Assembly: GCA_001818495.1 (NCBI GenBank)
Contig: MHKS01000005.1
Coordinates: 250,038 to 314,037 of the forward strand
Origin: Candidatus Komeilibacteria bacterium RIFOXYD1_FULL_37_29
Lineage (GTDB): Bacteria; Patescibacteriota; Patescibacteriia; UBA1558; GWA2-36-10
DNA length: 64,000 nucleotides
Reading direction: 5' to 3'
Shown here one piece after another: positions 10,814 through 33,817 of this stretch (position 1 is the stretch's first letter; each line of letters opens with the position of its first letter). Made by a program: the position numbers and the translations under genes. A model generated the notes under the pieces. It saw only the letters and a list, made by a program, of their open reading frames with translations, searched no databases and had not been told where the DNA came from.

Positions 10814-10834
10814 TATTAAGCTTTAATAATATTT

Positions 10835-18839: not shown

Positions 18840-19406
18840 ATGCTAAAAATTTTCTCAGTTCTATTAGTCGTGTTGTTTGGACTACCTCTCACAGTCCAAG
18901 CCGTTGGTTTGTCTGTTTCGCCGTCTTCTCTGGATATTTTTTATCCGGATGTTTTAACACAAAAAATAAAAATACAAAATATTTCTAGTGAGCCTATAAA
19001 AATCTATGTGCGGGCTGATGATTTTTCAAAAGAGATTAGCTTAGAACCGTCGGAGTTTAATTTGTTACCCCAAGAGATTGCTCTGGTAAATATTTCAGCT
19101 GATTTTAAGCATTTATCAGCCGGTGTTAGAAAAACCAATATTTCTGTTTTGTCCCAAGCTCTAGATAAAAAGAGTTTCAATGCTATCTCTGGTATCAAGG
19201 TGCCAGTCAGTATTTATGTTACGGAAAGTTATTTCAAGTGGTCAGGACCAGCTGTCTTTGTCGTAGTGTTTTTGGGCTTGGGAGTTATTTTTATGCTTTG
19301 GTATTTATTGGTTTATATTTTCCGGCTTAAACCCAAGAAAAATAAATTAGCGGGTTTTAACTTTTTGTTACATCATAAGCGGAAAAAGTGGTATAAATGG
19401 TGGTAA
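18840..19406 (+). CDS. signal-peptide protein with Ig-like/PapD-like body and C-terminal TM anchor (hypothetical)
   Basis: 188 aa. Signal peptide ends ...LPLTVQA. C-terminal TM AVFVVVFLGLGVIFMLWYLLVYIF plus a basic tail. Starts 3 nt after the upstream stop, so probably co-transcribed. Confidence 0.6.
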   Translation: MLKIFSVLLVVLFGLPLTVQAVGLSVSPSSLDIFYPDVLTQKIKIQNISSEPIKIYVRADDFSKEISLEPSEFNLLPQEIALVNISADFKHLSAGVRKTNISVLSQALDKKSFNAISGIKVPVSIYVTESYFKWSGPAVFVVVFLGLGVIFMLWYLLVYIFRLKPKKNKLAGFNFLLHHKRKKWYKWW

Positions 19407-19428
19407 TTTGTTATGATATTTGGAGTAG

Positions 19429-19596
19429 GGAGAGGTAGCAGATCCCGCGTAGCGGGACCCCGCTTTGCGGGGGTGGTTTAGAAATAGTAAGTTGATAATT
19501 TCATTTAGTTTTGGAGAGGTGGCAGCTCCCGCGCAGCGGGACCCCGCTTTGCGGGGGTGGTTTAGAAATAGTAAGTTGATAATTTCATTTAGTTTT
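19429..19596. repeat. two tandem 84-bp units, each beginning with the first 8-9 nt of the downstream tRNA-Ser and carrying twin GC-rich hairpins
   Basis: Units 19429-19512 and 19513-19596 (ggagaggt[a/g]gcag[a/c]tcccgcg[t/c]agcgggaccccgctttgcgggggtggtttagaaatagtaagttgataatttcatttagtttt). Three differences between units. Confidence 0.9.
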
Positions 19597-19686
19597 GGAG
19601 AGGTGCTAGAGTGGTTGAATAGGGTGCTCTCGAAAAGCACTAGTCCTGAAAGGGACTCGGGGGTTCAAATCCCTCCCTCTCCGCCA
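19597..19686 (+). tRNA. tRNA-Ser (anticodon CGA), class II with long variable arm, CCA encoded
   Basis: Hand-folded cloverleaf. Acceptor GGAGAGG/CCTCTCC; D stem CTA/TAG; anticodon stem GTGCT/AGCAC with loop CTCGAAA; variable-arm hairpin AGTCC/GGACT; T arm GGGGG-TTCAAAT-CCCTC; discriminator G plus CCA. Confidence 0.9.
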
Positions 19687-20051
19687 TCCTTCGCTAAAGC
19701 TACGGAATGACTAGCCATATGTTATATTATACTTACATTTTATTAAGCTCAAAATCTCATATTTTTTATTTTGGTTCAACGAATAATTTAAAAAATAGAT
19801 TGGAGCTGCATAATAGCGGCAAGGTAACATCAACTAAATCGCATATACCTTGGAAATTAGTTTGGTATTGTGTATTTGAAACGGAAAAACAGGCAAGAGA
19901 TTTTGAGCTTTATTTAAAAACAGGGTCAGGAAAATCTTTTGCTTATAAAAGACTTATTTCCGTGGCTTTAGAGAAGGATTTCAGGGAAGGGAGAATAGGT
20001 AGTCCGAAGCGGAAGCCTTAGCTTTTGCGAAGGATACCTCCCTCTCCGCCA
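19687..20051 (+). mobile_element. 365-bp GIY-YIG gene cassette bounded by 14-bp inverted repeats and a 15-bp duplication of the tRNA-Ser 3' end
   Basis: cctccctctccgcca occurs at 19672-19686 (tRNA 3' end) and again at 20037-20051. IR-L tccttcgctaaagc is at 19687-19700 and IR-R gcttttgcgaagga at 20021-20034 (1 mismatch). Confidence 0.55.
19707..20021 (+). CDS. small GIY-YIG (URI-domain) nuclease family protein
   Basis: YYTYILL...IFYFGSTNNLKNRLELHN...E...K matches the GIY...YIG...R...E layout of COG2827-type proteins. The start may instead be the ATG at 19719. Confidence 0.8.
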   Translation: MTSHMLYYTYILLSSKSHIFYFGSTNNLKNRLELHNSGKVTSTKSHIPWKLVWYCVFETEKQARDFELYLKTGSGKSFAYKRLISVALEKDFREGRIGSPKRKP

Positions 20052-20158
20052 GATTACCAAGTTTGAACCCAAGCAAAATAAGGGTTTTGTGCTATTGAAA
20101 AGCCGGTGTCCGAATAAGGTGCTGATTTTTTAAAATCCTTATCAAATGAGTAAATTTT

Positions 20159-20167
20159 TGGTAAAAT
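20159..20167 (+). promoter_or_regulatory. extended -10 promoter element (tggtaaaat) upstream of mod
   Basis: A TGn-TAAAAT element 24 nt upstream of the ATG at 20191. The same TGnTAnAAT style recurs at other operon starts in this window. Confidence 0.4.
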
Positions 20168-20190
20168 AGAGTTAATAAGAATAGAATTAT

Positions 20191-22020
20191 ATGTCTAAAA
20201 AAATTGATTACGACAACTGGTCAAAAGATGAGATAATCAAGGAGATTAGGCGAATCAAAGAAACTACATACGGACTTGTGTGGCATCGCGACTTACCTGA
20301 GGAAAAAATTGATATTCTTATAAACCCAGATGCTCGGACTCCAAATGAAATGTTCCCTAACGAAATGGCGGGCAAGCCATTTCCAGTTTTGAAAGAGGCA
20401 AAAACAAAAACAATTGAGACTGATAAAAATAAGCCGACAAATATTTTGATTGAGGGTGATAATTATCATTCTCTTGCCGTTTTGAATTTTACTCATCAAG
20501 AAGCAATTGATTTGATTTACATTGATCCGCCTTACAATACTGGCCACAACGATTTTGTTTACAATGATAAAATTAAAAGCGGTTATGTTGTTAAAGATGA
20601 TCCATTTAGGCATAGTAAATGGATTTCTTTCATGGAAAAAAGGTTAAAACTCGCAAAAAATTTATTGAAATCGTCGGGTGTTATTTTTATTAGTATTGAC
20701 GACAATGAATTTGCTCCATTAAAAATGCTGTGTGACGAGATTTTTGATGAAAGTAATTTCATCTCTATGTTGTCAATTGAAAATAATCCTAAGGGACGGA
20801 AAAACTCCGATTTTATATCTATTTGTAATGATTATTGTCTTATATACGCTAAAGACAAAGGTAAAAGTTATTTTGTTGAAAATATTCCCAAACAAGCTGA
20901 CGACTTAACGATTGATGATAATGGAGACTATGTACACAATAGCGGCAAACGGGTCCTTGTTGGAGAAAATAAATTTAATCCGCTTGTAGAAGATTTTGAA
21001 TCAGCTAAGCATTATAGTGTTTATTACAATCAGACTGATAATAAAATTAAAATAGAGGTGGAAAAAAATATTCACGAGGCAAACAAAGATTTATTAAAAA
21101 ACGGATATAAAAGATACTATTCTTATTTTGGAGACAGATTTGTCTTGAATACTTATACAAAATCAAAAATCATAGAGCTTTTCGAAGATGAGGCTCTCGA
21201 ATTCAAAAATGGGAGTATATATGAAAAAAATTTCAGCACAACAATTAGACTAAAAAGTCTTGTTATCAATAAAAAATATGAGGCAGTAATAAATAATGAA
21301 AAAGCAGAATATCAAATAGATGTTAAAACGACTTCAGCGAAGACTGAATTAAAGGATATTTTCAACACTGACCAAATTCCATTTGATAACCCCAAGAATA
21401 TTGGTTTGATAAAATTATTGGTAACATTATTTGAAAATAAATCAATAACTATTTTAGATTTTTTTGCAGGATCGGGAACGACCGGGCATGCAGTCCTTGG
21501 TCAAAATAAAGAAGATGGAGGAAATCGACAATTTATTCTGTGCACGAATAATGAAAATAATATATGCACTGATATCTGCTATCCCCGTCTTGGAAAAGTT
21601 ATAAAGGGATATAAAAATTCAAGAAATGAAAAAATTGATGGTTTGGGTGGAAACCTGAGATATTTTACTGCTTATGACTTTGTAGAAGCTAAGGAAACAG
21701 ATAGAAACAAAAGAAAACTAGTAAACCAATCAACAGAAATGCTTTGCATTAAGGAAAATGCTTTTGAGCTTGTGCAAGAAGTTGAAGATTATAAAATCTT
21801 CAAGAATCATGATAAATATTTGGGAATTATTTTTCATGAAGATTCTATATCGGACTATGTCAAAGCAATAAAAAAGATAAAAGGACACTTTAATACTTAT
21901 ACATTTTCAATGACGGATGATCCTCACAAAGAGGAATTTACTGATGTTGCGGACAAAGTAACTCTTTGTGCAATTCCAGAAATGATTTTGAAAGTATATC
22001 ATGAGATTTTCAAGGAATAA
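20191..22020 (+). CDS. mod: Type III restriction-modification DNA methyltransferase (Mod, beta-class N6A/N4C)
   Basis: 609 aa. Catalytic IDPPYNTG sits near the N-terminus (nt 20524-20535) and the SAM-binding FFAGSGTTGHAV near the C-terminus, with a variable middle region (TRD). Followed directly by a res-like helicase-nuclease gene. Confidence 0.85.
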   Translation: MSKKIDYDNWSKDEIIKEIRRIKETTYGLVWHRDLPEEKIDILINPDARTPNEMFPNEMAGKPFPVLKEAKTKTIETDKNKPTNILIEGDNYHSLAVLNFTHQEAIDLIYIDPPYNTGHNDFVYNDKIKSGYVVKDDPFRHSKWISFMEKRLKLAKNLLKSSGVIFISIDDNEFAPLKMLCDEIFDESNFISMLSIENNPKGRKNSDFISICNDYCLIYAKDKGKSYFVENIPKQADDLTIDDNGDYVHNSGKRVLVGENKFNPLVEDFESAKHYSVYYNQTDNKIKIEVEKNIHEANKDLLKNGYKRYYSYFGDRFVLNTYTKSKIIELFEDEALEFKNGSIYEKNFSTTIRLKSLVINKKYEAVINNEKAEYQIDVKTTSAKTELKDIFNTDQIPFDNPKNIGLIKLLVTLFENKSITILDFFAGSGTTGHAVLGQNKEDGGNRQFILCTNNENNICTDICYPRLGKVIKGYKNSRNEKIDGLGGNLRYFTAYDFVEAKETDRNKRKLVNQSTEMLCIKENAFELVQEVEDYKIFKNHDKYLGIIFHEDSISDYVKAIKKIKGHFNTYTFSMTDDPHKEEFTDVADKVTLCAIPEMILKVYHEIFKE

Positions 22021-22024
22021 TTAT

Positions 22025-24262
22025 ATGTCATGGATTAATTTTAAAAATTATCAAGAAACTGCAATCGATGAAATACGCGACAAGATTAATGCCCTGCTCA
22101 AAAAAGAGGGTAATAGACTTTGCGTATTCAAAGCTCCGACTGGTTCGGGGAAAACTTTAATGATGGCGGAATGGATGATGAGGTTTTGTGACCCATATTC
22201 GCGAATTGATGGGAAAACTTTTTCTTTTGTATGGATAGCAGTAAATAAATTACATGATCAAAGCCATGACAGTTTAAAAAAGTTTTATGAGCTCAAAGGA
22301 GCGGGGCTTCGTTGTTCATATTTTCACGAACTTGAGGATAGAAAAATAAAACAGAACGAGATTTTATTTTTGAATTGGGCAAGTATCAATAATGAAGACA
22401 AGATTATTGTTCGCGCGAATGAAAGAGATAATAATCTCTCAACAATAATTGATCGGACCAAAGATGCCAGTCGGACAATTATTTTGATTATCGACGAAAG
22501 CCACCATACCGCAAAAAGTAAAAATTCAAAGGCTTTAATAAAAAATATTGACCCTAAAATTACGATCGAGGTTTCTGCTACACCAGAAATTTTTGATTTT
22601 GATGAGCGGGTAACCATTGATATTGAGGATGTACGAAGCGAGGAAATGATAAAGAAAGAAATTGTAGTGAACCCTGGCTTCAAAAATTACACAGTTGATC
22701 CAAAAAAGAACGATCAAACAGCAGACGAATTAATCTTGAAGTCTGCTTTGCAAAAAAGGATTGATTTGCGAAAAAAATTAGAAAAAGATGGTTCAAATGT
22801 CAATCCCTTATTACTTATTCAATTACCGGATACAAAAAAAGGAGTTCCTGATAAAAAAGAGGAGATTGAAACACTTCTTGCTAAATTTGGCTATACAACA
22901 AAAAATGGAAAGTTGGCTGTCTATCTTTCTGAAAAAGATAACAAAATAAATCTTGCTAATATTGAGAAAAATGAAAACGAAGTGGAGGTAATGATGTTCA
23001 AGCAAGCGATTGCACTTGGTTGGGATTGTCCAAGAGCTACAATTCTTGTGCTTTTCCGTCAATGGAAAGATGAAACGATAACATTCTCAATCCAAACATT
23101 GGGAAGAATCATGCGTATGCCTGAGCAAAAACATTATAAAGATCAAGAGTTGAATATTGCTTATCTTTATACTAGTTTACAAGACATTAATACTCGTATT
23201 TTGAAAGGTGCTTCGTCGGGAATAAAATCTCTTACGAGTTATCGCAATGAGAAATATAAAAATATTGACCTAATTTCATATCACTCAAAACGATTCCGTG
23301 AGGAAACTCGTTTGTCTTCTGATTTTGTGAAAATTTTTATCGAAGCCGCTAAAAAAACAAATTTAAAAGATGTTTCGCTAAAAGTCGGGATTGTGAAAAC
23401 AACAATGATCAAAGATGGACGCGTGGAAAATGCGGATAAAGAAATAACAAAGATTGAAAGTGATACTTTTTCTATACCCAAAACAGAGACGGAGCTGCAA
23501 TATACTTTTGATATGTTTGTGCTTGATAATCTTGATCCGTTTGAACATGAAGCCCGTTCTATAAAACGCATAAACGATTCAATTTATACTTTCTTTGGCG
23601 CACGACGCAAAGAAGATGAATGGCCTAAAATACAAGCCACGATACTTTCGTATGAAAAGAATCGCCAAGCTGTAATTGATGCTATTAATCTAGCAAAAGA
23701 TTTATATAAAACCGAAGTTGGAAAAGGCAAAAAAGAACTGATACAAAATGATGAGCCGTGGAATGTGCCAGAAGCTATTAATTTTGATCCGTCATTTGTA
23801 GAGCAAAATTATAAAAAATCTATAATGCAACCATATTACGCTCGTTCTCGGGATGGAGAAAACGGACGATTGTTTGAGGACAGTGAAATTGAAAATGATT
23901 TTATTAAATACCTAGAAAAAGCACAGAAAGTTGTTTGGTGGTTCAGAAATGGGAAACAAGACGGATCATTTTTTGCTGTCCCGCACATTGAACACGGACA
24001 AGAAAAGCCGTTTTATGTTGATTTTATAGTTATGATGAAAAATGGAACTGTTGGGCTTTTTGATACAAAATCAGGATATACTGCCGAACTAGCAAAATCT
24101 CGCTCTGATGGACTTGTAAAATATATTAATGAGCAGAAAAAGAAAAAAATTACTGGCGGAATTGTGAGATACGAAAAGAAAAGTTGGCTATATTTTACTA
24201 ACAAAGAATATAAATATAATCCGAATGATATAAAGGATTGGGAATTTTTGGATTTGAATTAA
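22025..24262 (+). CDS. res: Type III restriction enzyme Res subunit (SF2 helicase + PD-(D/E)xK nuclease)
   Basis: Helicase motifs FKAPTGSGKT, IIDESHH and QTLGRIMR. C-terminal nuclease-like FYVDFIV...GLFDTKSG. The ATG at 22025 has an aagga SD-like element; the alternative start at 22001 overlaps mod. Confidence 0.85.
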   Translation: MSWINFKNYQETAIDEIRDKINALLKKEGNRLCVFKAPTGSGKTLMMAEWMMRFCDPYSRIDGKTFSFVWIAVNKLHDQSHDSLKKFYELKGAGLRCSYFHELEDRKIKQNEILFLNWASINNEDKIIVRANERDNNLSTIIDRTKDASRTIILIIDESHHTAKSKNSKALIKNIDPKITIEVSATPEIFDFDERVTIDIEDVRSEEMIKKEIVVNPGFKNYTVDPKKNDQTADELILKSALQKRIDLRKKLEKDGSNVNPLLLIQLPDTKKGVPDKKEEIETLLAKFGYTTKNGKLAVYLSEKDNKINLANIEKNENEVEVMMFKQAIALGWDCPRATILVLFRQWKDETITFSIQTLGRIMRMPEQKHYKDQELNIAYLYTSLQDINTRILKGASSGIKSLTSYRNEKYKNIDLISYHSKRFREETRLSSDFVKIFIEAAKKTNLKDVSLKVGIVKTTMIKDGRVENADKEITKIESDTFSIPKTETELQYTFDMFVLDNLDPFEHEARSIKRINDSIYTFFGARRKEDEWPKIQATILSYEKNRQAVIDAINLAKDLYKTEVGKGKKELIQNDEPWNVPEAINFDPSFVEQNYKKSIMQPYYARSRDGENGRLFEDSEIENDFIKYLEKAQKVVWWFRNGKQDGSFFAVPHIEHGQEKPFYVDFIVMMKNGTVGLFDTKSGYTAELAKSRSDGLVKYINEQKKKKITGGIVRYEKKSWLYFTNKEYKYNPNDIKDWEFLDLN

Positions 24263-24265
24263 ATT

Positions 24266-25450
24266 ATGGCATTAGAATCAGAAAAATTGGAAGAAAAAAT
24301 AGTTGATAATTATTTTACTGATACTCTATATAGTAGTCGGGAATTTAAGGGTGGAGTAGGTAAATTTTTTACAATAGTATCTCAGGATGAAAATGATATC
24401 CCAAATGTAGTTGATGTTGAGCATTCGTATCCTATACGCAATAAAATAAAGACAACGCTGACATTTATCAAAAAAGAAAACGAAATTACAGCCATTTCCT
24501 TTAAGCGTTTTAAATATTATAAAAAAGAACATTGGGTTGAACAACCAGAAGAACAGATTACTTTTTCATACAGTCTTTTTAAAAAAATTATTGGGTATTT
24601 ACAGTTACTATCAGAATTAAATTTGTCGGCTATTAGTGAGCGAAGAATTGCTTTAGCCGATGACACATTACCGAATATTGACGATGAAACAAAAAAGAAG
24701 ATTAAAACATTGCTTTTACGCAAAGATGGGCAAAAAATTATTGAGGAATTAATAAATAGCGGAATAATTACATCAACCGATATTGTAAATATCGGGTATC
24801 GAAAAAAACAACTTGATGTTTTTGAGAAGCTCCTGACACAACCCGATTATTTTGCAACCTATATAACTGAAAGTAAAATTACAGATACTCGTCATGAGTC
24901 TGTTTGGCAACATTTCTTCCATTCTAATGATTGGATTTTTGGATATGGACTAGATTATCGCTTTCTTGGCATCCTGCAAAAAGAAGCTCATATTTCAAAT
25001 ACAGACGTCGCAGGAAAAGGGGCTGTTATAAATGATTTTCTACTCGGGTGCAATAAATTCACCGTTTTGGTTGAATTAAAAAAACACGACACACCATTAT
25101 TTGGAAAAGACAAAAACCGGTCAAACTCTTGGACACTTTCAGATGATTTAATATCTGGTCTATCTCAAATATTAGAGCAAAAAGCTAGTTGGCAGGTTTC
25201 GGCCGAGACAAATGCAAGTGGAAATTTTGACGATAAGGGTAATTTGATAAAACAAAAAACTATCGATCCAAAAAGTATCTTAGTTATCGGATCAACAAAG
25301 CAATTTGATGGTGATGATAAAGAAAATCAAATTAAAGCAAAAACCTTTGAACTTTTTAGACGAGATTCAAGAAATATAGAAATTCTTACTTATGACGAAC
25401 TGTATGAGAGAGCGAAGTTTATTGTTGAACATAAACAGAAAGACAACTAG
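24266..25450 (+). CDS. DUF4263 / Shedu (SduA)-like PD-(D/E)xK nuclease-domain protein
   Basis: 394 aa. The C-terminal half reads WQHFFHSNDWIFGYGLDY...VINDFLLGC..FTVLVELKKHDTPLF...ILVIG...FELFRRDSRNIEILTYDELYERAKF, the layout I associate with DUF4263. Starts 4 nt after the res stop. Confidence 0.6.
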   Translation: MALESEKLEEKIVDNYFTDTLYSSREFKGGVGKFFTIVSQDENDIPNVVDVEHSYPIRNKIKTTLTFIKKENEITAISFKRFKYYKKEHWVEQPEEQITFSYSLFKKIIGYLQLLSELNLSAISERRIALADDTLPNIDDETKKKIKTLLLRKDGQKIIEELINSGIITSTDIVNIGYRKKQLDVFEKLLTQPDYFATYITESKITDTRHESVWQHFFHSNDWIFGYGLDYRFLGILQKEAHISNTDVAGKGAVINDFLLGCNKFTVLVELKKHDTPLFGKDKNRSNSWTLSDDLISGLSQILEQKASWQVSAETNASGNFDDKGNLIKQKTIDPKSILVIGSTKQFDGDDKENQIKAKTFELFRRDSRNIEILTYDELYERAKFIVEHKQKDN

Positions 25451-25793
25451 GTTTAAATAGAATAATCCACCTCATTTTTGCTCTTATCTGATTTTAGCTT
25501 CGGTGTCTCAAACCATTCTGGATGAACCTTGAACATAGCCCTTAATTCGCGTATACTTTTATCAATATCCTTAAATTTGAACCACTTTTTTGGTTCAAAC
25601 TTCGGGACATCGCCACCGCCACTCGATTCGCATTTTGCTTCGCAAAAAGCTCACTCGTGATCTACGGTGCTAAAGCACCTTCGACCATTCTAATTCTAGA
25701 ATCGAGTGTATTGAGCGAGCGTAGCGAGTCGAAAGGCACGCGCTATCGTGCTAGCATAAGTGTATTAAAAAATTTCTATATAGTTATTAAAAT

Positions 25794-26387
25794 ATGGATC
25801 AACAAACAATCAATACATACAACAGGATGTCACAAGAGTATGATGATGAAACAGCTGATTTTTGGGAGCGATTTCCTCGAACATTTCTTGATAAATTTAT
25901 TAAGCTATCCGGTAATAAAATACTTGATGTTGGGAGCGGACCAGGTAGAGATGGTTTGATACTTCAACAGGCCGGTAAAAATGTTGTCTGTGTGGATGCT
26001 TCTGCAGCAATGGTGAAATTGTCTTCAGACAGAGGTTTAAACTCTATAGTAGCCAGTTTCGACAATTTACCATTTGAAAATAATTCATTTGACGGCGTAT
26101 GGTCATATACTGCTCTTTTACATATTCCCAAAAAATCTATCGATACCCCTCTTCAAGAGATTTTTCGTATTATCAAACCTTCAGGTATTTTTGCTCTTGG
26201 TCTGATTGAAGGGGACACAGAAGGATACAAAGAAAGCTCTGAAGTGACTATGCCTCGTTGGTTTAGTTTCTATCAGAAAGACGAAGTTGAAAATTTATGC
26301 CAAAAGCACGGATTTGAGCTGGTTTACTTTGAGACTTTTAAACCAGGGTCCAAGCCCTATTTGAATTTTATTTTTCGAAAAATATAA
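25794..26387 (+). CDS. class I SAM-dependent methyltransferase
   Basis: 197 aa with motif I ILDVGSGPGRDG and post-I/II motifs (VVCVDAS, FDGVWSYTALLHI). Confidence 0.8.
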   Translation: MDQQTINTYNRMSQEYDDETADFWERFPRTFLDKFIKLSGNKILDVGSGPGRDGLILQQAGKNVVCVDASAAMVKLSSDRGLNSIVASFDNLPFENNSFDGVWSYTALLHIPKKSIDTPLQEIFRIIKPSGIFALGLIEGDTEGYKESSEVTMPRWFSFYQKDEVENLCQKHGFELVYFETFKPGSKPYLNFIFRKI

Positions 26388-26416
26388 TACTACTAGAACA
26401 TTTTTATCTATCTCAA

Positions 26417-26666
26417 TTTTCACTGTCTTTTCAGGCAGTTTTTTGGTATAATCAAAGCATTAATTAATAAAAATATTATGATTGACGAAGAAATAAAGCA
26501 AATTATTCAGGAAAATAAGGACACTTTGGCTAATATTGATAAAAGGATTGGTCGGATTGAGAAAAATTTTATTTGGAGTTCAATTTTTGGTTTTATAAAG
26601 ATTGTTATTATTGTAGCACCGATTGTTTTTGGTATTATTTATTTTACGCCATTTTTGAAAGATTTA
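26417..26666 (+). repeat. left copy of a ~250-bp direct repeat (promoter + 5' part of a small TM-protein gene)
   Basis: Aligns with 33400-33649 at a fixed offset of 6,983 nt. I count about 9 mismatches, and the first ~104 nt are identical. Contains tggtataat (26444-26452). Confidence 0.9.
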
Positions 26667-26690
26667 AATAAATTGGGTATTATTACATAA
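26478..26690 (+). CDS. small TM protein, truncated paralog of the 33461-33811 gene
   Basis: 70 aa. MIDEEIKQIIQENK..NIDKRIGRIEKNFIWSSIFGF.KIVII is nearly identical to the N-terminus of the downstream paralog and diverges after FTPFLKD. Confidence 0.6.
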   Translation: MIDEEIKQIIQENKDTLANIDKRIGRIEKNFIWSSIFGFIKIVIIVAPIVFGIIYFTPFLKDLNKLGIIT

Positions 26691-26707
26691 TTAAGAAATG
26701 GTAGTAT

Positions 26708-28426
26708 ATGAAAAAGTCAAAAGTCATATTAGGGATTACTGCCTTTAATCATGATTCTTCGGCGTGCTTAATTTATCAAGGTAGAGTAATTGCATTTTGT
26801 GAGGAGGAAAGATTCAATGGCATAAAACATACCGGAGATTTTCCGATAAAATCAATTTTATTTTGTTTAGAAAAAGCTGGTTTGTCATTAAATGATGTGA
26901 CTGATGTAGCTTTTTATTTTAATATTAAAAAATGTTTATTGAGTTATATAAAGAACAATAATCCACTCTATTATATTATTCATCCATCTTTATTTAAGAG
27001 GAAAAGATTTTATTATGAAATTATTTGGTTATTTAGTTTTATAAACAAAATTAATTCAATTAAAAAACTCCTTAATAATTATAAGATAAAGATTACTTAT
27101 GTAGATCATCATATGGCGCACGCTTGGTATGGGTATTTTTCTTCAAATTTTAAAAATTGCACGGTAGTTTCTAATGACAGCGTAGGCGAGAGTGTGAGTA
27201 GTTTAGCCGTAAAGATACAGAGAGAAGATAAAAAAATTATTTTTGGTAAGACATTCAGTCAAACAGACCCTCACTCTATTGGGTATTTGTATGGTGCTAT
27301 AACTGAATTTTTAGGATTCAAAAGAGGTCAAGACGAAGGAAAGGTTATGGCTATGGCGGCTTTAGGGAAAGATAAATATGTAAAATATTTTGATGACTTG
27401 ATTAGATATTTACCTAATGGGGAATTTAGAATAAGTAAGGAGTTGATTTCCTTACGTAATTTTCAGCCAAAATCACAAAGATTAAGCAATGATTTTTTAA
27501 AAAAATTTGGATATTATCGTCAACCCCAAGAACCATTTATCCAAAAGCATTATGATATTGCTTATGCAATACAAGGGGTAACGGAAAAAATTTTATATCA
27601 CCAATTAAAATATATTAATGATGATAATATAGTCATTACTGGTGGTATTGCTCAAAATAGTGTAGCCAACGGGAAACTCAACAATTTTTTTTATAAAAGA
27701 AATATATTTATTCCTCCGATTCCTAATGATGCCGGGTGTGGTATTGGCGCGGCGCTTTCTTTATATTATAAGTATTATGAAGATTTACCAGAGTTTGTGG
27801 ATACTGCGTTTTTAGGCCCAGAATTTTCTGATCATAAAATCATTAAAACATTAGAAAATAATAAAATAAATTTTAAAATTATAAAAAATCAGACGGAATT
27901 CATTATTAATGAGCTTTTGAAAAATAAGATTATCGCTATATATAGAAATGAGATGGAGTGTGGTCCTAGGGCATTAGGTAATAGGAGTATAATAGCCAAT
28001 CCAATTGATCCGGCGATGAAGAATTACATCAATGAAAAAATAAAACACCGTGAATTTTTTCAGCCATACGGCGGGTTGATTATTGATAAAAATGTTAAAG
28101 AAGTATTTGATTATAAGAATAAAAATATTTCCGGACCATATATGTCTTTTGTTTATCCAATTAAAGATAAATGGTTAAAAATGTTTCCATCTTTGGTTCA
28201 TTTTGATAAAACTTCTAGAATTCAAATAATAAAGAAGGAACAAAATTTTTTATATAGTCTCTTGGAAGAATTTTATAAAAAAACAGGTGTCCCCGTAATT
28301 ATAAATACTTCCCTTAATTTAAGAGGGCAGCCTATGGCAAGAAGCCATCAAGATGCTTTAAACACATTTTATAATTCGGGGATTCATTATATTTTATTTA
28401 ATAACAGTATTCTAGTTTCAAAATGA
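26708..28426 (+). CDS. NodU/CmcH/TobZ-family O-carbamoyltransferase
   Basis: 572 aa. N-terminal ILGITAFNHDSSACLIYQGRVIAFCEEERFNGIKH, VDHHMAHAWYGYF, and C-terminal domain ECGPRALGNRSIIANP. Confidence 0.85.
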   Translation: MKKSKVILGITAFNHDSSACLIYQGRVIAFCEEERFNGIKHTGDFPIKSILFCLEKAGLSLNDVTDVAFYFNIKKCLLSYIKNNNPLYYIIHPSLFKRKRFYYEIIWLFSFINKINSIKKLLNNYKIKITYVDHHMAHAWYGYFSSNFKNCTVVSNDSVGESVSSLAVKIQREDKKIIFGKTFSQTDPHSIGYLYGAITEFLGFKRGQDEGKVMAMAALGKDKYVKYFDDLIRYLPNGEFRISKELISLRNFQPKSQRLSNDFLKKFGYYRQPQEPFIQKHYDIAYAIQGVTEKILYHQLKYINDDNIVITGGIAQNSVANGKLNNFFYKRNIFIPPIPNDAGCGIGAALSLYYKYYEDLPEFVDTAFLGPEFSDHKIIKTLENNKINFKIIKNQTEFIINELLKNKIIAIYRNEMECGPRALGNRSIIANPIDPAMKNYINEKIKHREFFQPYGGLIIDKNVKEVFDYKNKNISGPYMSFVYPIKDKWLKMFPSLVHFDKTSRIQIIKKEQNFLYSLLEEFYKKTGVPVIINTSLNLRGQPMARSHQDALNTFYNSGIHYILFNNSILVSK

Positions 28427-29247
28427 TTAAAGATTTTCAAAAGATAGAGTTTTTAAAATCACTTTACAGTGATAAAGACTTAATATCGTTTCGTGGCAAT
28501 TTTTTAAAAAATAATTCCAACCGTAAATTCTCATTAAGATCTTTTATTATTAAACTTTTGCCGATGCTAAAGGATAAAAAAATATTAGACATTGGTTGCG
28601 GAGACGGGTCATTCCTCAATAAATTACATACGGTATATCCTCAAAATAAATATTTTGGTTTGGATGTAGTAGATAATGCTAAATGCCATAAATTGAAATT
28701 TCTTGACTACAAAATTTATGATGGTAAATCCAGGGTTTATTATACGGAAAAATTTGATGTGATATTTTGTATGCACACTGTTTATCATATCGAAGATTTA
28801 TTCACTTTTTTTACAACGATGAAAGACTATTTAAAGCCCCATGGCATTATTATCATTACTACGAAGTCTAAATTGACTTTTCCTAAAATAGAATCAATCT
28901 TTTTAAAGATTGTCGGTAAGCTTGACTTAAAAAAATATTTAAAAATTAGCAAACACAGAGAGGAATCAAAATTTTGTTTGGAGAACGGATTAAACAGATT
29001 AAAAAAACACTTCGCTAGGCGGTCATTTAGTATAAATGAGTATGTTTTAGAAACGCAGGTTTTTGTTAATGACAAAAAAGATCTTTTGAAATATGTTTTT
29101 TCTACAAATAGATATAATATTTTGAAAGATACTTTAAACAAAAAAATTGTTGAAAAATATACAAAACTTTGGTTTGAAGAAATTGATAAAGATCAGATAT
29201 TCATTGATAAATATACGGAGGCTGTTTATTTAATAAAAAAATTATGA
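28423..29247 (+). CDS. class I SAM-dependent methyltransferase
   Basis: 274 aa with ILDIGCGDGSF motif I, YFGLDVV and FDVIFCMHTVYHIEDL. ATGA overlap with the carbamoyltransferase stop. Confidence 0.75.
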   Translation: MIKDFQKIEFLKSLYSDKDLISFRGNFLKNNSNRKFSLRSFIIKLLPMLKDKKILDIGCGDGSFLNKLHTVYPQNKYFGLDVVDNAKCHKLKFLDYKIYDGKSRVYYTEKFDVIFCMHTVYHIEDLFTFFTTMKDYLKPHGIIIITTKSKLTFPKIESIFLKIVGKLDLKKYLKISKHREESKFCLENGLNRLKKHFARRSFSINEYVLETQVFVNDKKDLLKYVFSTNRYNILKDTLNKKIVEKYTKLWFEEIDKDQIFIDKYTEAVYLIKKL

Positions 29248-30311
29248 AAATAGGTTATAGTTGCTGGGGATTTTTGGGTAACGGAATAAAGGATACACCG
29301 GATGGCGGGAGGAGTCACCGGTTGACTTTATTGAAAGAATTAATCCGTCAAGGAGTTGAAATAGTAATGTTGCAAAAGAATAGAGACCTCATTGAAGGCA
29401 ATCAAAGTTTTTCACGAAAGAATTTAATATTTAGTGGTGAGTTACCGGAAATAGATGCTCTATTTGTAGAATATAGATGGAAGATAGTAGGAAGGAATTA
29501 TAAGGTGAGAAAAAATAATCCAGCCTATACTCCGGATTTCGATAGACAGAGTGAATTAATTAATTTTTATAATAATAGAAATATTCCTATTATTATTTGG
29601 GATAAAGATCAGAAACTTGGTAAGAATGAAATAAAAGGCATTAAAAATTTGATTGTATTTGAACCTGCTTTAAAGCCAAGGTTTAATAGAAAAAGTTTAT
29701 TGTTTCCGATGGACAATCATAGAACAAAAATTGTCCTCAAATTGATAGGTAAGTATAAAAAAAATATTAAGAGCTCCAAGTTGTGTTACATTGGAAATCA
29801 ATATGAGAGAGATGGTAGTTTTAAAGAGTTTATTAATAAGCCAGCCAGTATGCTCGATACCAAAACACCAGTATTTGGTAATTGGAACAAATATCCAGAA
29901 AAGTATAAGCAAAATATGCAAAAATTTTCCAATGTTGAATTTAAAGGTAGGGTGCAGTTTAATAAAGTTAATAATATTTATAAAAAATCTTTTTCTACAG
30001 TTCTTATCGCGCCACGGAGATATTATATCACGGGTCATTTTACACAAAGATTATTTGAGGCAATGTGGGGCTTATGCATTCCTTTTACCCCGCAGCAATA
30101 TCATGGATGGCAGGGTTTAATAATAAAAGATTTTATAATTAGATCTGGCAAAGATTTAATAAATAAGATAAAAAAATTAGAAACAACGCCCGATTCAGAT
30201 ATAAGGAGAATGTTTGATAGACAGTTTGAGAAACTTAATTTATTTAATGCCAGTAAACAAGCCAGTATAATTATAAACGAAATCAATAATCATAATGGTA
30301 GACTCGGGTAA
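29244..30311 (+). CDS. hypothetical protein, possibly GT-B-fold (CgeB/DUF3880-like) glycosyltransferase
   Basis: 355 aa. The C-terminal half (YIGNQYERD...VEFKGRV...YKKSFSTVLIAPRRYYITGHFTQRLFEAMWGLCIPF) resembles the donor-binding half of GT-B enzymes. The assignment is by eye only. ATGA overlap with the upstream gene. Confidence 0.3.
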   Translation: MKIGYSCWGFLGNGIKDTPDGGRSHRLTLLKELIRQGVEIVMLQKNRDLIEGNQSFSRKNLIFSGELPEIDALFVEYRWKIVGRNYKVRKNNPAYTPDFDRQSELINFYNNRNIPIIIWDKDQKLGKNEIKGIKNLIVFEPALKPRFNRKSLLFPMDNHRTKIVLKLIGKYKKNIKSSKLCYIGNQYERDGSFKEFINKPASMLDTKTPVFGNWNKYPEKYKQNMQKFSNVEFKGRVQFNKVNNIYKKSFSTVLIAPRRYYITGHFTQRLFEAMWGLCIPFTPQQYHGWQGLIIKDFIIRSGKDLINKIKKLETTPDSDIRRMFDRQFEKLNLFNASKQASIIINEINNHNGRLG

Positions 30312-31074
30312 TAAAAATAAATCTTTAGAAATTGTAATTGATTCTAAACACTATATTAAAAAAAGATATTCTGATATCCAACGTTTTTTTTGTGAATTAA
30401 AATATCTTAAATATTTTAAAGATGAAGATATCAATGTTCCTTTTATATATAAATTTGATAAAATCCAAAAAACAATAATAATAGATAAAATAAAGGGGAA
30501 AATCGGCGATTCATTAAATAATAGAGACACAAAACTATGCATTGATGTGCTTGTCAAAATAATTTTTATTTTTGGTTTGGAAAAGAAAAATAATAATGAA
30601 ATTGATAGGTATATTTCAAAAGTCAGGTCAAATATAATATGGTGGTGTGAAAATAATAATTATATAGTAGAAAAAGAAAAATTAAATATTTTACTTCAAA
30701 AGTTAAGAAAAGTGTGTTATATATCTTTATTCAAAGATGCCAAACCATCTAATTGGATTTTTCAAAAAGATAAAATATACGCAATAGACTTTGATTATGT
30801 AAAAAAATCATTTTTTTTAGCAGATTTAGCACAACTTTTAAGTTATATTTCATTAAGGAAAAAAATAAGTTATATTTTCTTTGTAAATTATTATCTAAAG
30901 CAAATATTCCCAAAAATGAAGGATTATGATAAATTTTATATACCTTTTAAATTAGCGCTTGTTAATTCCAACATTGCTTCTGAACTTCACAGAGAGAATT
31001 TAGGAGCCTATGTAAAAAGGGGTTTTGCCAAACAAAACAGGTTTATTTTGAGTGAATTTAAGATAATATTATAA
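30295..31074 (+). CDS. protein-kinase-like fold kinase (APH/Bud32/LPS-kinase-like)
   Basis: 259 aa. Catalytic-loop-like FKDAKPSNWIF followed by IYAIDFDYV (DFG-equivalent). Overlaps the upstream gene by 17 nt. Confidence 0.5.
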   Translation: MVDSGNKNKSLEIVIDSKHYIKKRYSDIQRFFCELKYLKYFKDEDINVPFIYKFDKIQKTIIIDKIKGKIGDSLNNRDTKLCIDVLVKIIFIFGLEKKNNNEIDRYISKVRSNIIWWCENNNYIVEKEKLNILLQKLRKVCYISLFKDAKPSNWIFQKDKIYAIDFDYVKKSFFLADLAQLLSYISLRKKISYIFFVNYYLKQIFPKMKDYDKFYIPFKLALVNSNIASELHRENLGAYVKRGFAKQNRFILSEFKIIL

Positions 31075-31955
31075 TGTCAATATCAATAACCGCCAAATCA
31101 GCTAATGAAGCATTCATTAAAATAGCTGATAAATTGTATAATAATCCGGAATATGTTTCTAGTCCTCGAAGCTGGGAAACAAGGGAGTTATTAGGGGCTT
31201 TTATTGTTATCAACAATCCCTATGATCGTTTTATAAATAATGTTCATAGGAAGATTTCTTTAAAGTATCTTATTGGTGAATGGTTATGGTATGAGCGAGG
31301 ATCCAATTCTTTAAATGAAATTAATTATTATGCAAAATTTTGGAGCAGTATTTCGGATGATAAAATAACTGCCAATTCAGCTTATGGTCATAGAATTTTA
31401 GGGATCAATAAGTTCGTGATTATTAATCAATGGAAGTGGGCCAAACGGCAAATAATAAAAGATAAGGAAACAAGGAGAGCCATCATTTTTATTGGATTGC
31501 CAAGTGATATGAAAAACGAAACGAAAGATTTTCCTTGCACTATGTCACTCCAGTTTTTAATAAGAAATAATGAGTTACATTTAATTTGCAATATGAGGAG
31601 CAATGATTTAGTATTGGGTTTTACTTATGATGTAGCTACCTTTACTTTATATCAAGAAAAAATGTTGTTGGAGTTGAAAAAATATTATCCAAAATTAAAG
31701 ATAGGTAAATATTTTCATATGGTAGGCAGTTTACACGTATATAAGAAAAACTATGAGATGATAAAAAAAGTGATAAATGATCAGGACAATAATTTGAAAA
31801 TTACCATGCCTCGCATGGGTGATTTAAAAGAAATAAAAAAACTCCAGTATAACGAGAGTATTATAAGAGAAAATAAAAATAAAAAGTTTAAAAAAATTGA
31901 AGATAGATTCTGTATCTGGTGTCAGAATATTTTATTAAATAAAATTAAATACTAA
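31074..31955 (+). CDS. thymidylate synthase (ThyA) superfamily enzyme with Asp at the Asn177-equivalent position; candidate deoxycytidylate/cytidylate C5-hydroxymethylase or methylase
   Basis: Hand alignment to E. coli ThyA. GEWLWYERG ~ ELLWFLQG; TRRAIIF ~ SRRIIVSAW; FPCTMSLQF ~ APCHAFFQF (Cys codon 31536-31538); MRSNDLVLGFTYDVATF ~ QRSCDVFLGLPFNIASY (Asp codon 31629-31631 replaces Asn177); GSLHVY ~ GDTHLY. TAATG overlap with the upstream gene. Confidence 0.7.
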   Translation: MSISITAKSANEAFIKIADKLYNNPEYVSSPRSWETRELLGAFIVINNPYDRFINNVHRKISLKYLIGEWLWYERGSNSLNEINYYAKFWSSISDDKITANSAYGHRILGINKFVIINQWKWAKRQIIKDKETRRAIIFIGLPSDMKNETKDFPCTMSLQFLIRNNELHLICNMRSNDLVLGFTYDVATFTLYQEKMLLELKKYYPKLKIGKYFHMVGSLHVYKKNYEMIKKVINDQDNNLKITMPRMGDLKEIKKLQYNESIIRENKNKKFKKIEDRFCIWCQNILLNKIKY

Positions 31956-31956
31956 A

Positions 31957-32628
31957 ATGAAAGGCATAATTATAGACGGAGTTGTTTCTTCTGGTAAAAC
32001 GTCTATCTTAAAACATCTTCATCGTCTGATTTCAGAACAAAACCCTACTTCAACCAAGTTTTTTATTAGTGAACACTATACTGAGAGAATGTTGGAGCAT
32101 TTGAAAGATAAAGGTGAATTAGACGGTAGCCATATAAAAGCCCACGTTGATCAGTTAATCCATACTTTAGCTTCTTTTCAGTCTATGTTGGATAATTCTA
32201 AGTTTCGTGATAACCCGAAAGGAGCAGATTTGTTTGTTACTTTAGAAAGATTTATTCTAACCCATTTGTCCTCAGTGGACATAGGAGATAAATATAGTCT
32301 TGATGAAGTCAAAGCTCATTTTGAAATTTTAAACAAGCTAGGAGTAAAACAAGTAGCTTTAATAATTCCCGAATCAAGACTAAAAGAAAATATCATGTCG
32401 ACTCTGCAATATCGAAATGACGCCTGGTTGGATTATTTGTATTCTAGGGGTGGAGAAAAAGAAATTATAGAATATTATATCAATTGGCAGAATAATTTTT
32501 TAGAGTATATCAACAAATTTAAAGATATAATAGATACCTTAGTCATCGAAGTAAAAGATCAAGACTATCTTCAATATAGTAATACTATTTTTAATAGTTG
32601 TATTAAATCAGATATTCTCTCAAAATAA
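31957..32628 (+). CDS. P-loop kinase, (deoxy)nucleoside/nucleotide-kinase-like
   Basis: 223 aa. Walker A IIIDGVVSSGKTS at the N-terminus and a possible ERS-like LERF motif. Starts 2 nt after the ThyA-like stop. Confidence 0.4.
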   Translation: MKGIIIDGVVSSGKTSILKHLHRLISEQNPTSTKFFISEHYTERMLEHLKDKGELDGSHIKAHVDQLIHTLASFQSMLDNSKFRDNPKGADLFVTLERFILTHLSSVDIGDKYSLDEVKAHFEILNKLGVKQVALIIPESRLKENIMSTLQYRNDAWLDYLYSRGGEKEIIEYYINWQNNFLEYINKFKDIIDTLVIEVKDQDYLQYSNTIFNSCIKSDILSK

Positions 32629-33114
32629 ATGTTTTTTAATTTTATGTTTTTTATACTTTACCCCGGCTAAATCAAAGAGTTTTTTAGAAACGATAAAATT
32701 ATTCGCATCTTTGTCTGATCTATCATCTTGATAGATTATATTTTTTATGCCGCTTTGGATAATAATTTTTGCACACTCATTGCAGGGGAAGAGTAAACAG
32801 TAAAGTTTTGCATTTTCGGCTGATTGATTAGTATTTAAAATGGCATTTACTTCAGCGTGAACAACATACGGATATTTTGTATTTAAGATATTTTTTTTGT
32901 TATGCCCGTAATTATTACTCCAAGAAAAATGCCCTTCCTTAATACCTCTAGGCCAACCGTTGTAGCCAACTCCTAAAACAACATTATTTTTATCAACCAC
33001 GACAGCTCCGGTTTGAGTTGATGGGTCTTTTGATCTCTGAGCTATAACTTGAGCCATTAGCATAAATGTTTCATCCCACGATAAATAGTTTTTTCTAGCT
33101 TTTATATTATCCAT
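32620..33114 (-). CDS. dCMP deaminase (ComEB/Cd family)
   Basis: 164 aa. Zinc motifs VHAEVNAI and PCNECAKII, with N-terminal SWDETFMLMAQVIAQRSKDPSTQTGAVVV. Convergent with the operon, with a 9-nt 3' overlap. Confidence 0.9.
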   Translation of the reverse strand: MDNIKARKNYLSWDETFMLMAQVIAQRSKDPSTQTGAVVVDKNNVVLGVGYNGWPRGIKEGHFSWSNNYGHNKKNILNTKYPYVVHAEVNAILNTNQSAENAKLYCLLFPCNECAKIIIQSGIKNIIYQDDRSDKDANNFIVSKKLFDLAGVKYKKHKIKKHLF

Positions 33115-33399
33115 TTTTGTAGGTTAGATCACTTTATAAGAATATAATACCCCATACTTATCTTAAAAGTCAAAGATTATAACTATTATTTTTATGTCGA
33201 AACTAGTCAACAAACTAAAACCGAGAAAAATTTTTGGTTGTCAGAAAGAAGCTTGAATAATATAGGCAAGAAAGAGAGTTTTATTATAATGCTCGGAGGA
33301 GATATGTGAAATATTATGAACCAAACATTTAATTCGCAATGATTACTGGTTGTTCTATATAAAAAGATAGAGCCGTTAGTGTTAGTTGACGATTTCTGT

Positions 33400-33649
33400 T
33401 TTTCACTGTCTTTTCAGGCAGTTTTTTGGTATAATCAAAGCATTAATTAATAAAAATATTATGATTGACGAAGAAATAAAGCAAATTATTCAGGAAAATA
33501 AGGAAACTTTAGCTAATATTGATAAAAGAATTGGTCGGATTGAGAAAAATTTTATTTGGAGTTCAATTTTTGGTTTTGTAAAGATTGTTATTATTTTAGG
33601 GCCGATTATTTTTGGTATTATTTATTTTACGCCATTTTTAAAAGATTTT
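33400..33649 (+). repeat. right copy of the ~250-bp direct repeat
   Basis: See the left copy. Contains tggtataat at 33427-33435 and the ATG at 33461. Confidence 0.9.
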
Positions 33650-33811: not shown

Positions 33812-33817
33812 AAAATC

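What the first reader, a model, noticed from the sequence alone, without database searches (positions are those of the whole stretch)
20159..25450. Defence operon: Type III R-M (mod-res) directly coupled to a Shedu-like DUF4263 nuclease gene
mod (DPPY ... FxGxG order, beta class), res (SF2 helicase plus C-terminal D..DxK nuclease) and a 394-aa DUF4263-type protein (D...ELK PD-(D/E)xK core) lie on one strand. The gaps are 4 nt each when res starts at 22025, behind a single extended -10 promoter. Shedu (SduA, DUF4263) is known as a stand-alone anti-phage nuclease. A three-gene transcription unit with a Type III R-M implies functional coupling, such as layered or co-regulated defence. The long unassigned N-terminal half of the third protein (aa 1-190) may be a sensor domain. 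Defence systems are reportedly sparse in CPR-type genomes, which makes this island notable.
Basis: partly seen in the sequence, partly recalled or inferred. Interest (0 to 1): 0.55.

Follow-up and report, generated by a model that had tools for sequence, protein, structure and literature searches.

The report
Type III restriction operon carrying Shedu
A small groundwater bacterium (candidate phyla radiation, CPR) has a standard Type III restriction-modification gene pair with a Shedu anti-phage nuclease gene joined to its end, an arrangement already reported in other bacteria in which the Shedu gene is a swappable add-on rather than a fixed third part.

Summary
Three same-strand genes are present: mod (20191-22020), res (22025-24262) and sduA (24266-25450). 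The gaps are 4 nt and 3 nt. The genes match Type III methyltransferase, Type III restriction enzyme and full-length Shedu SduA models, and all catalytic motifs are intact. The window is chromosomal DNA of Candidatus Komeilibacteria (CPR).

- The link is not chance. The same mod-res-sduA order with gaps of 10 nt or less recurs in five other genomes, and about half of 48 well-flanked homologues of this SduA sit inside R-M operons.
- The link is facultative and does not depend on the partner type.
  - The closest SduA relatives (93%, 88% and 79% identity) follow Type I or Type II-like operons.
  - The closest Res relative (91%) has a different, unannotated gene in the same slot.
  - Only about 4 of 59 related Type III operons carry any Shedu. 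Others carry OLD/GajA-like, GmrSD-like or PDC genes there.
- Shedu genes inside Type I-IV R-M loci were already published (Gu et al. 2023: 602 of 5,499).
- This SduA clade is common in Patescibacteria, so it is not a rarity there.

Most likely this is a co-expressed, co-transferred second defence layer. Synergy through DNA ends made by restriction is plausible but untested. Verdict: a new member of a known kind, of modest interest.

The parts
20104..20124 (+). Terminator-like hairpin followed by a T-run. It separates the tRNA-Ser/GIY-YIG unit from the operon.
   Evidence: 7-bp stem, 3 GC pairs, tail ATTTTTTAAA. This is a consensus match only; the region has 4 such sites against 3.7 expected.
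20139..20167 (+). Promoter-like site TTATCA-17-TAAAAT with TG (extended -10), 24 nt upstream of the mod ATG.
   Evidence: Consensus match only, not above the shuffle expectation.
20191..22020 (+). mod: Type III DNA methyltransferase, beta-class, 609 aa.
   Evidence: The central segment (about 20764-21451) does not align at the DNA level with the closest operon L088 while both flanks do (78% and 84% nt), as expected for a swapped target-recognition domain.
22025..24262 (+). res: Type III restriction subunit, 745 aa, with an SF2 helicase and a C-terminal PD-(D/E)xK nuclease.
   Evidence: Mod lies directly upstream in 68 of 69 related loci.
24231..24265 (+). The last ~35 nt of res plus the spacer. 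This stretch travels with sduA.
   Evidence: DNA similarity to sduA loci with other upstream genes begins here (L081, L001, L085, L004, L010). A remnant of the res tail lies in the intergenic DNA of L081 (after hsdS) and L001.
24266..25450 (+). sduA: Shedu nuclease, 394 aa. The N-terminal region (aa 1-200) has an unassigned fold; the C-terminal part is the DUF4263 PD-(D/E)xK domain.
   Evidence: E211, D257, E270, K272 and Q301 align with the published B. cereus motif residues E204, D249, E264, K266 and Q295, and they are invariant in 78 homologues.
25451..25621 (.). Conserved ~170-nt flank directly after the sduA stop. Two copies of it bracket the whole HTH-mod-res-sduA unit in L004.
   Evidence: 187-nt direct repeats in L004 at 5379-5565 and 11197-11383, 83% identical; about 80% identical to the window copy. 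No Pfam hit to its minus-strand reading.
19597..19686 (+). tRNA-Ser(CGA), the genomic landmark upstream of the island.
   Evidence: The closest operon, L088, sits downstream of a different tRNA (tRNA-Thr) with no flank homology.

Best explanation
Mod and Res form a complete, self-sufficient Type III R-M system. Mod methylates host sites, and the Mod-Res complex uses ATP to cleave unmodified incoming DNA.

The sduA gene is an autonomous Shedu nuclease with an intact PD-(D/E)xK active site and an N-terminal regulatory region. It occupies a variable accessory slot at the 3' end of the operon, 3 nt after the res stop. It is therefore most likely transcribed from the mod promoter and translated by coupling to res.

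SduA is exchangeable cargo. It is co-expressed and co-transferred with R-M operons of any type and adds a second, sequence-independent layer of defence. It probably does not need specific contacts with Mod or Res.

Shown here: the gene identities, the intact motifs, the tight spacing, the recurrence of the arrangement, and the independence of the two modules. Inferred: co-transcription, anti-phage activity, and any synergy.
For: - Identities and motifs.
- Spacing: gaps of 4 and 3 nt. In 32 of 56 loci where the gene upstream of sduA is on the same strand, the gap is 20 nt or less.
- Recurrence: 24 of 48 well-flanked loci of this SduA clade have R-M genes in the same-strand gene chain. This compares with 11% for all Shedu in Gu et al.. 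The same trio is in L002, L004, L006, L010 and L035.
- Independence of partner type:
  - SduA at 93% identity follows Type I hsdM-hsdS.
  - SduA at 88% identity follows an HTH / C5-MTase / unknown / N6_N4-MTase operon.
  - SduA at 79% identity follows hsdMSR.
  - R-M partner types are interleaved in the SduA tree.
  - Mod and Res in the other trios are only about 30% identical to the window's, while their SduA is 70-82% identical.
- Variable slot:
  - L088 (Res 91%) carries an unrelated 473-aa gene 2 nt after the res stop.
  - 20 of 59 related operons have a tightly coupled third gene of 150 aa or more (my count).
  - Those checked include OLD/GajA-like, GmrSD/NsnA-like, PDC-M36A, PDC-S39, AAA_13, and two other SduA types: subfamily PDLC00385 and a second, distinct SduA.
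- Mobility: in L004 the unit is bracketed by 187-nt direct repeats.
Against: - There is no expression or activity data. Co-transcription is inferred from spacing alone, and the promoter and terminator calls do not exceed the shuffle expectation.
- The strong over-representation of this clade inside R-M operons, and the res tail that moves with sduA, could mean a closer functional dependence on restriction than 'independent layer' implies.
- The structure models of SduA are weak (pLDDT 61-62), so nothing is known about how this N-terminal region regulates the nuclease.
Confidence: 0.65

Rival explanations
1. Sequential synergy. SduA is a second-stage nuclease that depends on restriction. Cleavage by Res, or by any R-M enzyme, creates free DNA ends. 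SduA senses and processes these ends, turning a single repairable cut into irreversible degradation. This role is comparable to that of RecBCD after restriction.
For: - E. coli SduA binds free DNA ends with an N-terminal clamp and nicks at a fixed distance from them (Loeff et al.).
- The clade is embedded in R-M operons of every type. That fits a substrate common to all of them, namely ends, better than a protein partner.
Against: - The N-terminal region here shows no sequence similarity to the E. coli or B. cereus N-terminal domains. PDB matches cover only aa 201-386 or 258-386, and no fold could be assigned.
- About half of the well-flanked homologues are not next to R-M genes.
- Whether this genome lacks RecBCD/AddAB could not be checked.
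Confidence: 0.3
2. PrrC-like guard. SduA is held inactive by the R-M enzyme and is released when a phage anti-restriction protein disables restriction.
For: In Type I contexts sduA sits between hsdS and hsdR (L016, L021, L030, L037, L042). From my own knowledge, this is the position of prrC in the EcoprrI locus. A precedent exists for a DUF4263 nuclease that needs an operon partner: KELShedu, with a 3-bp gap between its genes.
Against: SduA proteins 79-93% identical to this one are paired with unrelated R-M proteins of Type I, II-like and III. This makes a conserved specific interface unlikely. Many homologues have no R-M neighbour at all.
Confidence: 0.08
3. Chance adjacency of two unrelated defence systems in an island, with no shared regulation or function.
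For: Both modules occur without the other. The third slot holds many different genes.
Against: - The 3-nt gap is consistent with read-through from res, and no terminator-like site was called at the res-sduA junction.
- The trio recurs in distant lineages: Poribacteria (L006), Maribacter (L035) and several CPR genomes.
- Three different SduA types independently occur behind this Res family.
- R-M genes are present in the gene chain of half of the well-flanked loci.
Confidence: 0.07

Closest known systems
Shedu genes encoded within R-M loci (Gu et al. [quoted passage not shown] Fig. S8)
   Same: A DUF4263 nuclease gene inside a Type III R-M operon. The authors list Type I, II, III and IV contexts (602 of 5,499 genes) and propose that Shedu complements R-M.
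   Different: That survey does not mention CPR/Patescibacteria. The points made here are not in the text I could read: near-identical SduA behind different R-M types, a variable third slot in this Res family, and a res tail that moves with sduA. I could not inspect their supplementary figure.
Bacillus cereus Shedu (PDB 8TI8/8TI9) and E. coli SduA (8PS4/8PS5)
   Same: The C-terminal nuclease domain is homologous (phmmer 3.7e-13, profile 2.2e-22; Foldseek 1.2e-7 and 2e-4). All five catalytic motif residues are conserved.
EcoP15I-type Type III R-M (PDB 4ZCF)
   Same: Mod is homologous (4.8e-35). The gene order is mod then res. Res has an SF2 helicase and a C-terminal PD-(D/E)xK motif.
   Different: Res belongs to a divergent, shorter family (745 aa) with no sequence hit to EcoP15I Res in the PDB. 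It matches one PADLOC REase_III model over its N-terminal 450 aa only. No repeat tract for phase variation was found.
PrrC anticodon nuclease embedded in the EcoprrI Type Ic locus (from my own knowledge)
   Same: An accessory nuclease gene inside an R-M operon. In Type I contexts sduA sits at the same hsdS-X-hsdR position.
   Different: PrrC is an RNase held in check by its specific R-M partner. SduA is a DNase family member, and its partners vary freely.
KELShedu two-gene system (PMC12577705)
   Same: A DUF4263 nuclease in an operon with a 3-bp intergenic gap, where both genes are required.
   Different: There the partner is a small dsDNA-binding protein, not an R-M enzyme. No homologue of it was seen here.

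Membership tests
Type III restriction-modification system | Mod subunit: beta-class N6-adenine/N4-cytosine DNA methyltransferase, with motif IV (DPPY) before motif I (FxGxG) and the target-recognition domain between them | tested here: met
   PF01555 4.6e-29; PADLOC MTase_III 1.9e-76; DPPY at aa 112 and FAGSG at aa 425; homologous to the EcoP15I, Mbo45V and H. pylori Mods.
Type III restriction-modification system | Res subunit: SF2 helicase/ATPase motifs plus a PD-(D/E)xK endonuclease domain | tested here: met
   PF04851 6.6e-21; PADLOC REase_III 4.5e-20. GSGKT, DESH, SATP and GRIMR are present, and D666, D680 and K682 are invariant in 5 homologues. There is no sequence match to EcoP15I Res in the PDB, so this is a divergent Res family.
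Type III restriction-modification system | mod directly upstream of res as a conserved pair | tested here: met
   Mod lies upstream in 68 of 69 loci of the Res family that have at least 900 nt of upstream sequence.
Type III restriction-modification system | ATP-dependent cleavage that needs two inversely oriented unmodified sites, with hemi-methylation by Mod | not testable with these tools
   Biochemical property.
Shedu (SduA) | DUF4263 / SduA_C domain above the curated threshold | tested here: met
   PF14082 scores 104.2 bits against a cut-off of 27. PADLOC SduA PDLC00392 matches at 1.7e-154 over the full length.
Shedu (SduA) | Complete PD-(D/E)xK motifs I-IV | tested here: met
   E211, D257, E270, K272 and Q301 align with B. 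cereus E204, D249, E264, K266 and Q295. They are invariant in 78 homologues.
Shedu (SduA) | N-terminal regulatory/sensor domain of a described class (Type 1A-1G of Gu et al.) | tested here: inconclusive
Shedu (SduA) | Single-gene system sufficient for anti-phage defence | not testable with these tools
   Genomically the clade occurs both with and without R-M neighbours, which is consistent with autonomy.
Obligate three-component R-M/Shedu system | The three genes co-occur consistently, each requiring the others | tested here: not met
   SduA follows res in only about 4 of 59 related Type III operons. The closest operon has a different third gene. The closest SduA genes have other R-M partners.
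PrrC-like guard of an R-M enzyme | Specific physical association with, and inhibition by, the cognate R-M complex | not testable with these tools
   Indirect evidence against: SduA proteins 79-93% identical to this one are paired with unrelated R-M types.

The most novel reading that the evidence does not exclude
This widespread SduA clade (PADLOC PDLC00392-like) may be a dedicated R-M companion. In this reading it is a portable end-processing nuclease that moves between R-M operons of any type, taking the last ~35 nt of res with it. It would act only on the breaks those enzymes make, supplying the post-restriction degradation step in lineages such as CPR that may lack RecBCD/AddAB. A linked reading is that the 3' slot of this Type III family is a recombination hotspot that samples defence cargo, including unannotated genes such as the 473-aa protein in L088 and the 634-aa protein in L091.
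Probability: 0.25. Interest if true: 0.55.

Novelty: new member of a known kind. Interest (0 to 1): 0.3.

Why it matters
As it stands, this is one more example of a published pattern: Shedu genes embedded in R-M loci. The instance itself is already in public databases as an SduA_C-domain protein.

What the follow-up adds is a cleaner picture of how the pattern arises. The same SduA moves among Type I, II-like and III operons. The 3' slot of this Type III family is a variable cargo position. These points argue for a mechanism that does not depend on the R-M partner.

That makes one question directly testable: does Shedu act on DNA ends produced by restriction? A cultured host, Maribacter algarum RZ26, carries the same trio. 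The analysis also flags two unannotated genes in the same slot as candidate new defence genes.

Tried and rejected
1. Obligate three-gene system. Rejected by the reciprocal neighbourhood analysis.
3. Phase-variable repeats in mod or res. None were found. The only tandem repeat is the 84-nt pair upstream of tRNA-Ser.
4. Known RNA elements in 19000-26500. Only the tRNA was found.
5. Island boundary by repeats of the tRNA 3' end. The 15-nt repeat brackets only the GIY-YIG ORF, not the operon. GC content does not mark the island.
6. Meaning of the conserved ~170-nt flank after sduA. There is no Pfam hit to its ORF-like minus-strand reading. It is unresolved.
7. Phage carriage. Only one distant relative (36% identity) was found in the viral contig collection, so this clade is cellular.
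8. Res against solved structures. There is no match to EcoP15I Res by sequence.
9. Literature on experimental Type III-Shedu synergy. None was found in the searchable library.
10. Literature on defence systems in Patescibacteria. The search gave nothing directly usable.
Full report
**What is there**

The + strand of 20159-25450 carries three ORFs.
- mod is 20191-22020 (609 aa).
- res is 22025-24262 (745 aa). An alternative ATG at 22001 gives 753 aa.
- The third gene, sduA, is 24266-25450 (394 aa).

The mod stop and the res ATG are 4 nt apart. The res stop and the sduA ATG are 3 nt apart.

The homologue alignment supports the 22025 start for res.

A terminator-like hairpin (20104-20124) and a promoter-like site with a TG extension (20139-20167) precede mod. 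Both are consensus matches only, in a region where such matches are no more frequent than in shuffled sequence.

The window is chromosomal. It also encodes FtsA, FtsZ, RF2, EF-G, EF-Tu and SecY. All five window proteins looked up, among them Mod, Res, SduA and EF-G, are exact matches to entries of Candidatus Komeilibacteria bacterium RIFOXYC1_FULL_37_11, a CPR/Patescibacteria MAG. There, UniRef already names the third protein 'Shedu protein SduA C-terminal domain-containing protein'.

**Identity of the parts**

Mod
- It matches Pfam N6_N4_Mtase (4.6e-29) and eleven PADLOC Type III methyltransferase models better than any Type II model (best 1.9e-76).
- DPPY (aa 112) precedes FAGSG (aa 425).
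- It is homologous to the solved Type III Mods Mbo45V, H. pylori Mod and EcoP15I Mod.

Res
- It matches Pfam ResIII (6.6e-21) and PADLOC REase_III (4.5e-20).
- It has the helicase motifs GSGKT, DESH, SATP and GRIMR.
- It has a C-terminal YVDF...DTK motif whose D666, D680 and K682 are invariant in five family members.
- It has no sequence match to EcoP15I Res in the PDB, so it belongs to a divergent Res family.

SduA
- It matches Pfam SduA_C/DUF4263 (9.9e-30, aa 210-380).
- Over its full length it matches PADLOC SduA model PDLC00392 (1.7e-154, aa 9-393).
- Aligned with B. cereus Shedu (PDB 8TI8), residues E211, D257, E270, K272 and Q301 correspond to the published catalytic motifs E204, D249, E264, K266 and Q295.
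- All five residues are invariant in 78 homologues.
- Foldseek places the model next to B. cereus Shedu and E. coli SduA.

**Is the trio more than chance?**

Yes. A search of one genome per species returned 80 loci with full-length homologues of this SduA at 40-87% identity.

The same order, mod-res-sduA, is present in five of them, with res of the same family and res-sduA gaps of 10 nt or less:
- L002 (Paceibacterota; SduA 82%)
- L004 (81%)
- L006 (a 6.5-Mb Poribacteria chromosome; 71%)
- L010 (70%)
- L035 (Maribacter algarum RZ26; 45%)

More generally, clustering of the neighbours and Pfam scans of representatives give these counts:
- 32 of 77 loci have R-M genes in the same-strand gene chain as sduA.
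- Among loci with at least 3 kb on both sides, the figure is 24 of 48.
- The R-M partners are of several kinds. Type I is most often arranged hsdM-hsdS-sduA-hsdR. Others are Type IIG/MmeI-like enzymes, paired methyltransferases and Type III.
- In 32 of 56 cases with a same-strand upstream gene, the gap is 20 nt or less.

**Is the coupling specific to Type III, or obligate?**

No. Four lines of evidence point the same way.

1. The closest SduA relatives sit behind other systems.
   - P0001 (93%) follows Type I hsdM-hsdS.
   - P0005 (88%) follows an HTH / C5-methylase / unknown / N6_N4-methylase operon.
   - P0008 (84%) follows a truncated Res.
   - L003 (79%) follows hsdM-hsdS-hsdR.
   - In a neighbour-joining tree the partner types are interleaved. 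The window (Type III) is sister to L081 (Type I), L004 (III) to L003 (I), and L010 (III) to L007 (methylases).

2. In the other Type III trios, Mod and Res are only about 30-34% identical to the window's, while SduA is 70-82% identical.

3. The reciprocal search took the 80 closest metagenomic relatives of Res (42-91% identity).
   - mod lies upstream in 68 of 69 loci.
   - tblastn finds an SduA downstream in only 3 of 59, and a Pfam scan adds L108.
   - Those SduA proteins belong to other subfamilies, such as PDLC00385.

4. The closest operon, L088 (Res 91% aa), aligns with the window at 84% nt identity up to exactly the res stop codon. It then continues, 2 nt later, with an unrelated 473-aa ORF that has no Pfam or PADLOC match.

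By my count, about 20 of 59 related operons have a tightly coupled third gene of 150 aa or more. Those I scanned are varied:
- OLD/GajA-like ATPase-TOPRIM proteins (L133, L092)
- a GmrSD/NsnA-like DUF262-HNH protein (L137)
- PDC-M36A (L097)
- PDC-S39/DUF4209 (L114)
- an AAA_13 ATPase (L144)
- a pentapeptide-repeat protein (L110)
- unknowns (L088, L091)

The position behind res is therefore a variable cargo slot. Shedu is one of several occupants.

**Traces of how sduA moves**

DNA similarity between the window and other sduA loci starts about 35 nt upstream of the sduA ATG, inside the res 3' end. This holds whatever gene lies upstream.

L081, where sduA follows hsdS, keeps a remnant of the res tail in its intergenic spacer. 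L001 keeps about 75 nt of a res 3' end preceded by stop codons. This suggests that the res-sduA junction is ancestral for the closest clade, and that sduA was carried into other operons together with the end of res.

In L004 the whole HTH-mod-res-sduA unit is bracketed by 187-nt direct repeats plus a repeated hairpin. One copy of that element lies directly after the window's sduA (25451-25621), and its neighbouring segment matches 20046-20088 upstream of mod.

The window operon lies after tRNA-Ser. L088 lies after tRNA-Thr and shares no flank homology with the window.

Only one distant relative of this SduA was found in viral contigs.

**Mechanism**

Mod-Res should work as a normal Type III system. 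This rests on established knowledge of the family; it was not tested here.

For SduA, the published mechanisms are as follows. Both are paper results.
- E. coli SduA is a tetramer whose N-terminal clamp binds free DNA ends and nicks at a fixed distance from them.
- B. cereus Shedu is an auto-inhibited tetramer that is activated by rearrangement.

Nearly identical SduA proteins serve beside unrelated R-M enzymes. A conserved protein-protein interface with the R-M partner is therefore unlikely.

The best-supported reading is a co-expressed, co-transferred and autonomous second layer of defence (confidence 0.65). A more specific version is that SduA exploits the ends produced by restriction. This is plausible and fits the partner-agnostic pattern, but it is untested (0.3). 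A PrrC-like guard role (0.08) and pure chance adjacency (0.07) are less likely.

**Comparison with what is known, and novelty**

Gu et al. (bioRxiv 10.1101/2023.08.10.552793) already report 602 of 5,499 Shedu genes within Type I, II, III and IV R-M loci, and 87 within BREX loci. They propose that Shedu complements these systems. The finding is a further instance of that pattern.

The CPR angle does not add much. The closest named homologues are from Patescibacteria, and about 20 of the 80 species-level loci carry CPR labels.

I found no experimental study of Type III-Shedu synergy in the searchable literature. KELShedu is a precedent for a DUF4263 nuclease that needs an operon partner.

**Verdict**

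This is a new member of a known kind, with interest 0.3.

Noticed in passing
window 19687-20051: A 104-aa GIY-YIG ORF (19707-20021; PF01541 1.5e-16) lies directly after tRNA-Ser(CGA). It is bracketed by an exact 15-nt direct repeat of the tRNA 3' end (CCTCCCTCTCCGCCA at 19672 and 20037; 0.07 matches expected by chance) and by inverted 8-mers (TCCTTCGC and GCGAAGGA). It looks like a small GIY-YIG cassette inserted into the tRNA 3' end.
   Followed up: partly
window 19429-19596: Two tandem 84-nt copies (96% identical) end at the tRNA-Ser 5' end. Each starts with the first 8 nt of the tRNA (GGAGAGGT) and contains a GC-rich hairpin. There is no Rfam match, and the fold z-score is only -1.7.
   Followed up: partly
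window 25451-25621; L004 5379-5565 and 11197-11383: A conserved ~170-187-nt element lies directly after the sduA stop, and two copies of it bracket the whole operon in L004. Its minus strand reads as an ORF-like C-terminus (...KVHPEWFETPK...NEVDYSI*) with no start codon and no Pfam hit. It may be a recombination or insertion-site remnant.
   Followed up: partly
L088 4565-5983; L091 5245-7146: Unannotated proteins of 473 aa and 634 aa occupy the slot directly behind res in the most closely related Type III operons. Neither has a Pfam or PADLOC hit. They are candidate uncharacterised defence genes.
   Followed up: no
window 20764-21451 (mod, central part): The central part of mod does not align at the DNA level with the closest operon L088, while both flanks do (78% and 84% nt). 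Overall Mod identity is 58%, against 91% for Res. This is the pattern expected for a swapped target-recognition domain and hence a different methylation specificity.
   Followed up: partly
L035 (Maribacter algarum RZ26, 5706-11131); L006 (Poribacteria chromosome, 5990-11179): The same mod-res-sduA trio occurs in a cultured Bacteroidota isolate and in a Poribacteria chromosome. The SduA proteins are 45% and 71% identical to the CPR protein. This indicates cross-phylum transfer and offers a tractable host.
   Followed up: partly
L004 5686-5880: A small XRE-type HTH ORF precedes mod in L004 and may be a controller (C) protein. I identified it by reading the translated sequence, not by a family search. 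The window operon has no such gene.
   Followed up: no
window 26000-34000: A low-GC stretch (25-30%, against about 38% elsewhere) lies downstream of the operon. It encodes methyltransferases and a 572-aa protein that I take to be a carbamoyltransferase, judged by reading the sequence only and not by a family search. It may be a separate glycan or biosynthetic island.
   Followed up: no
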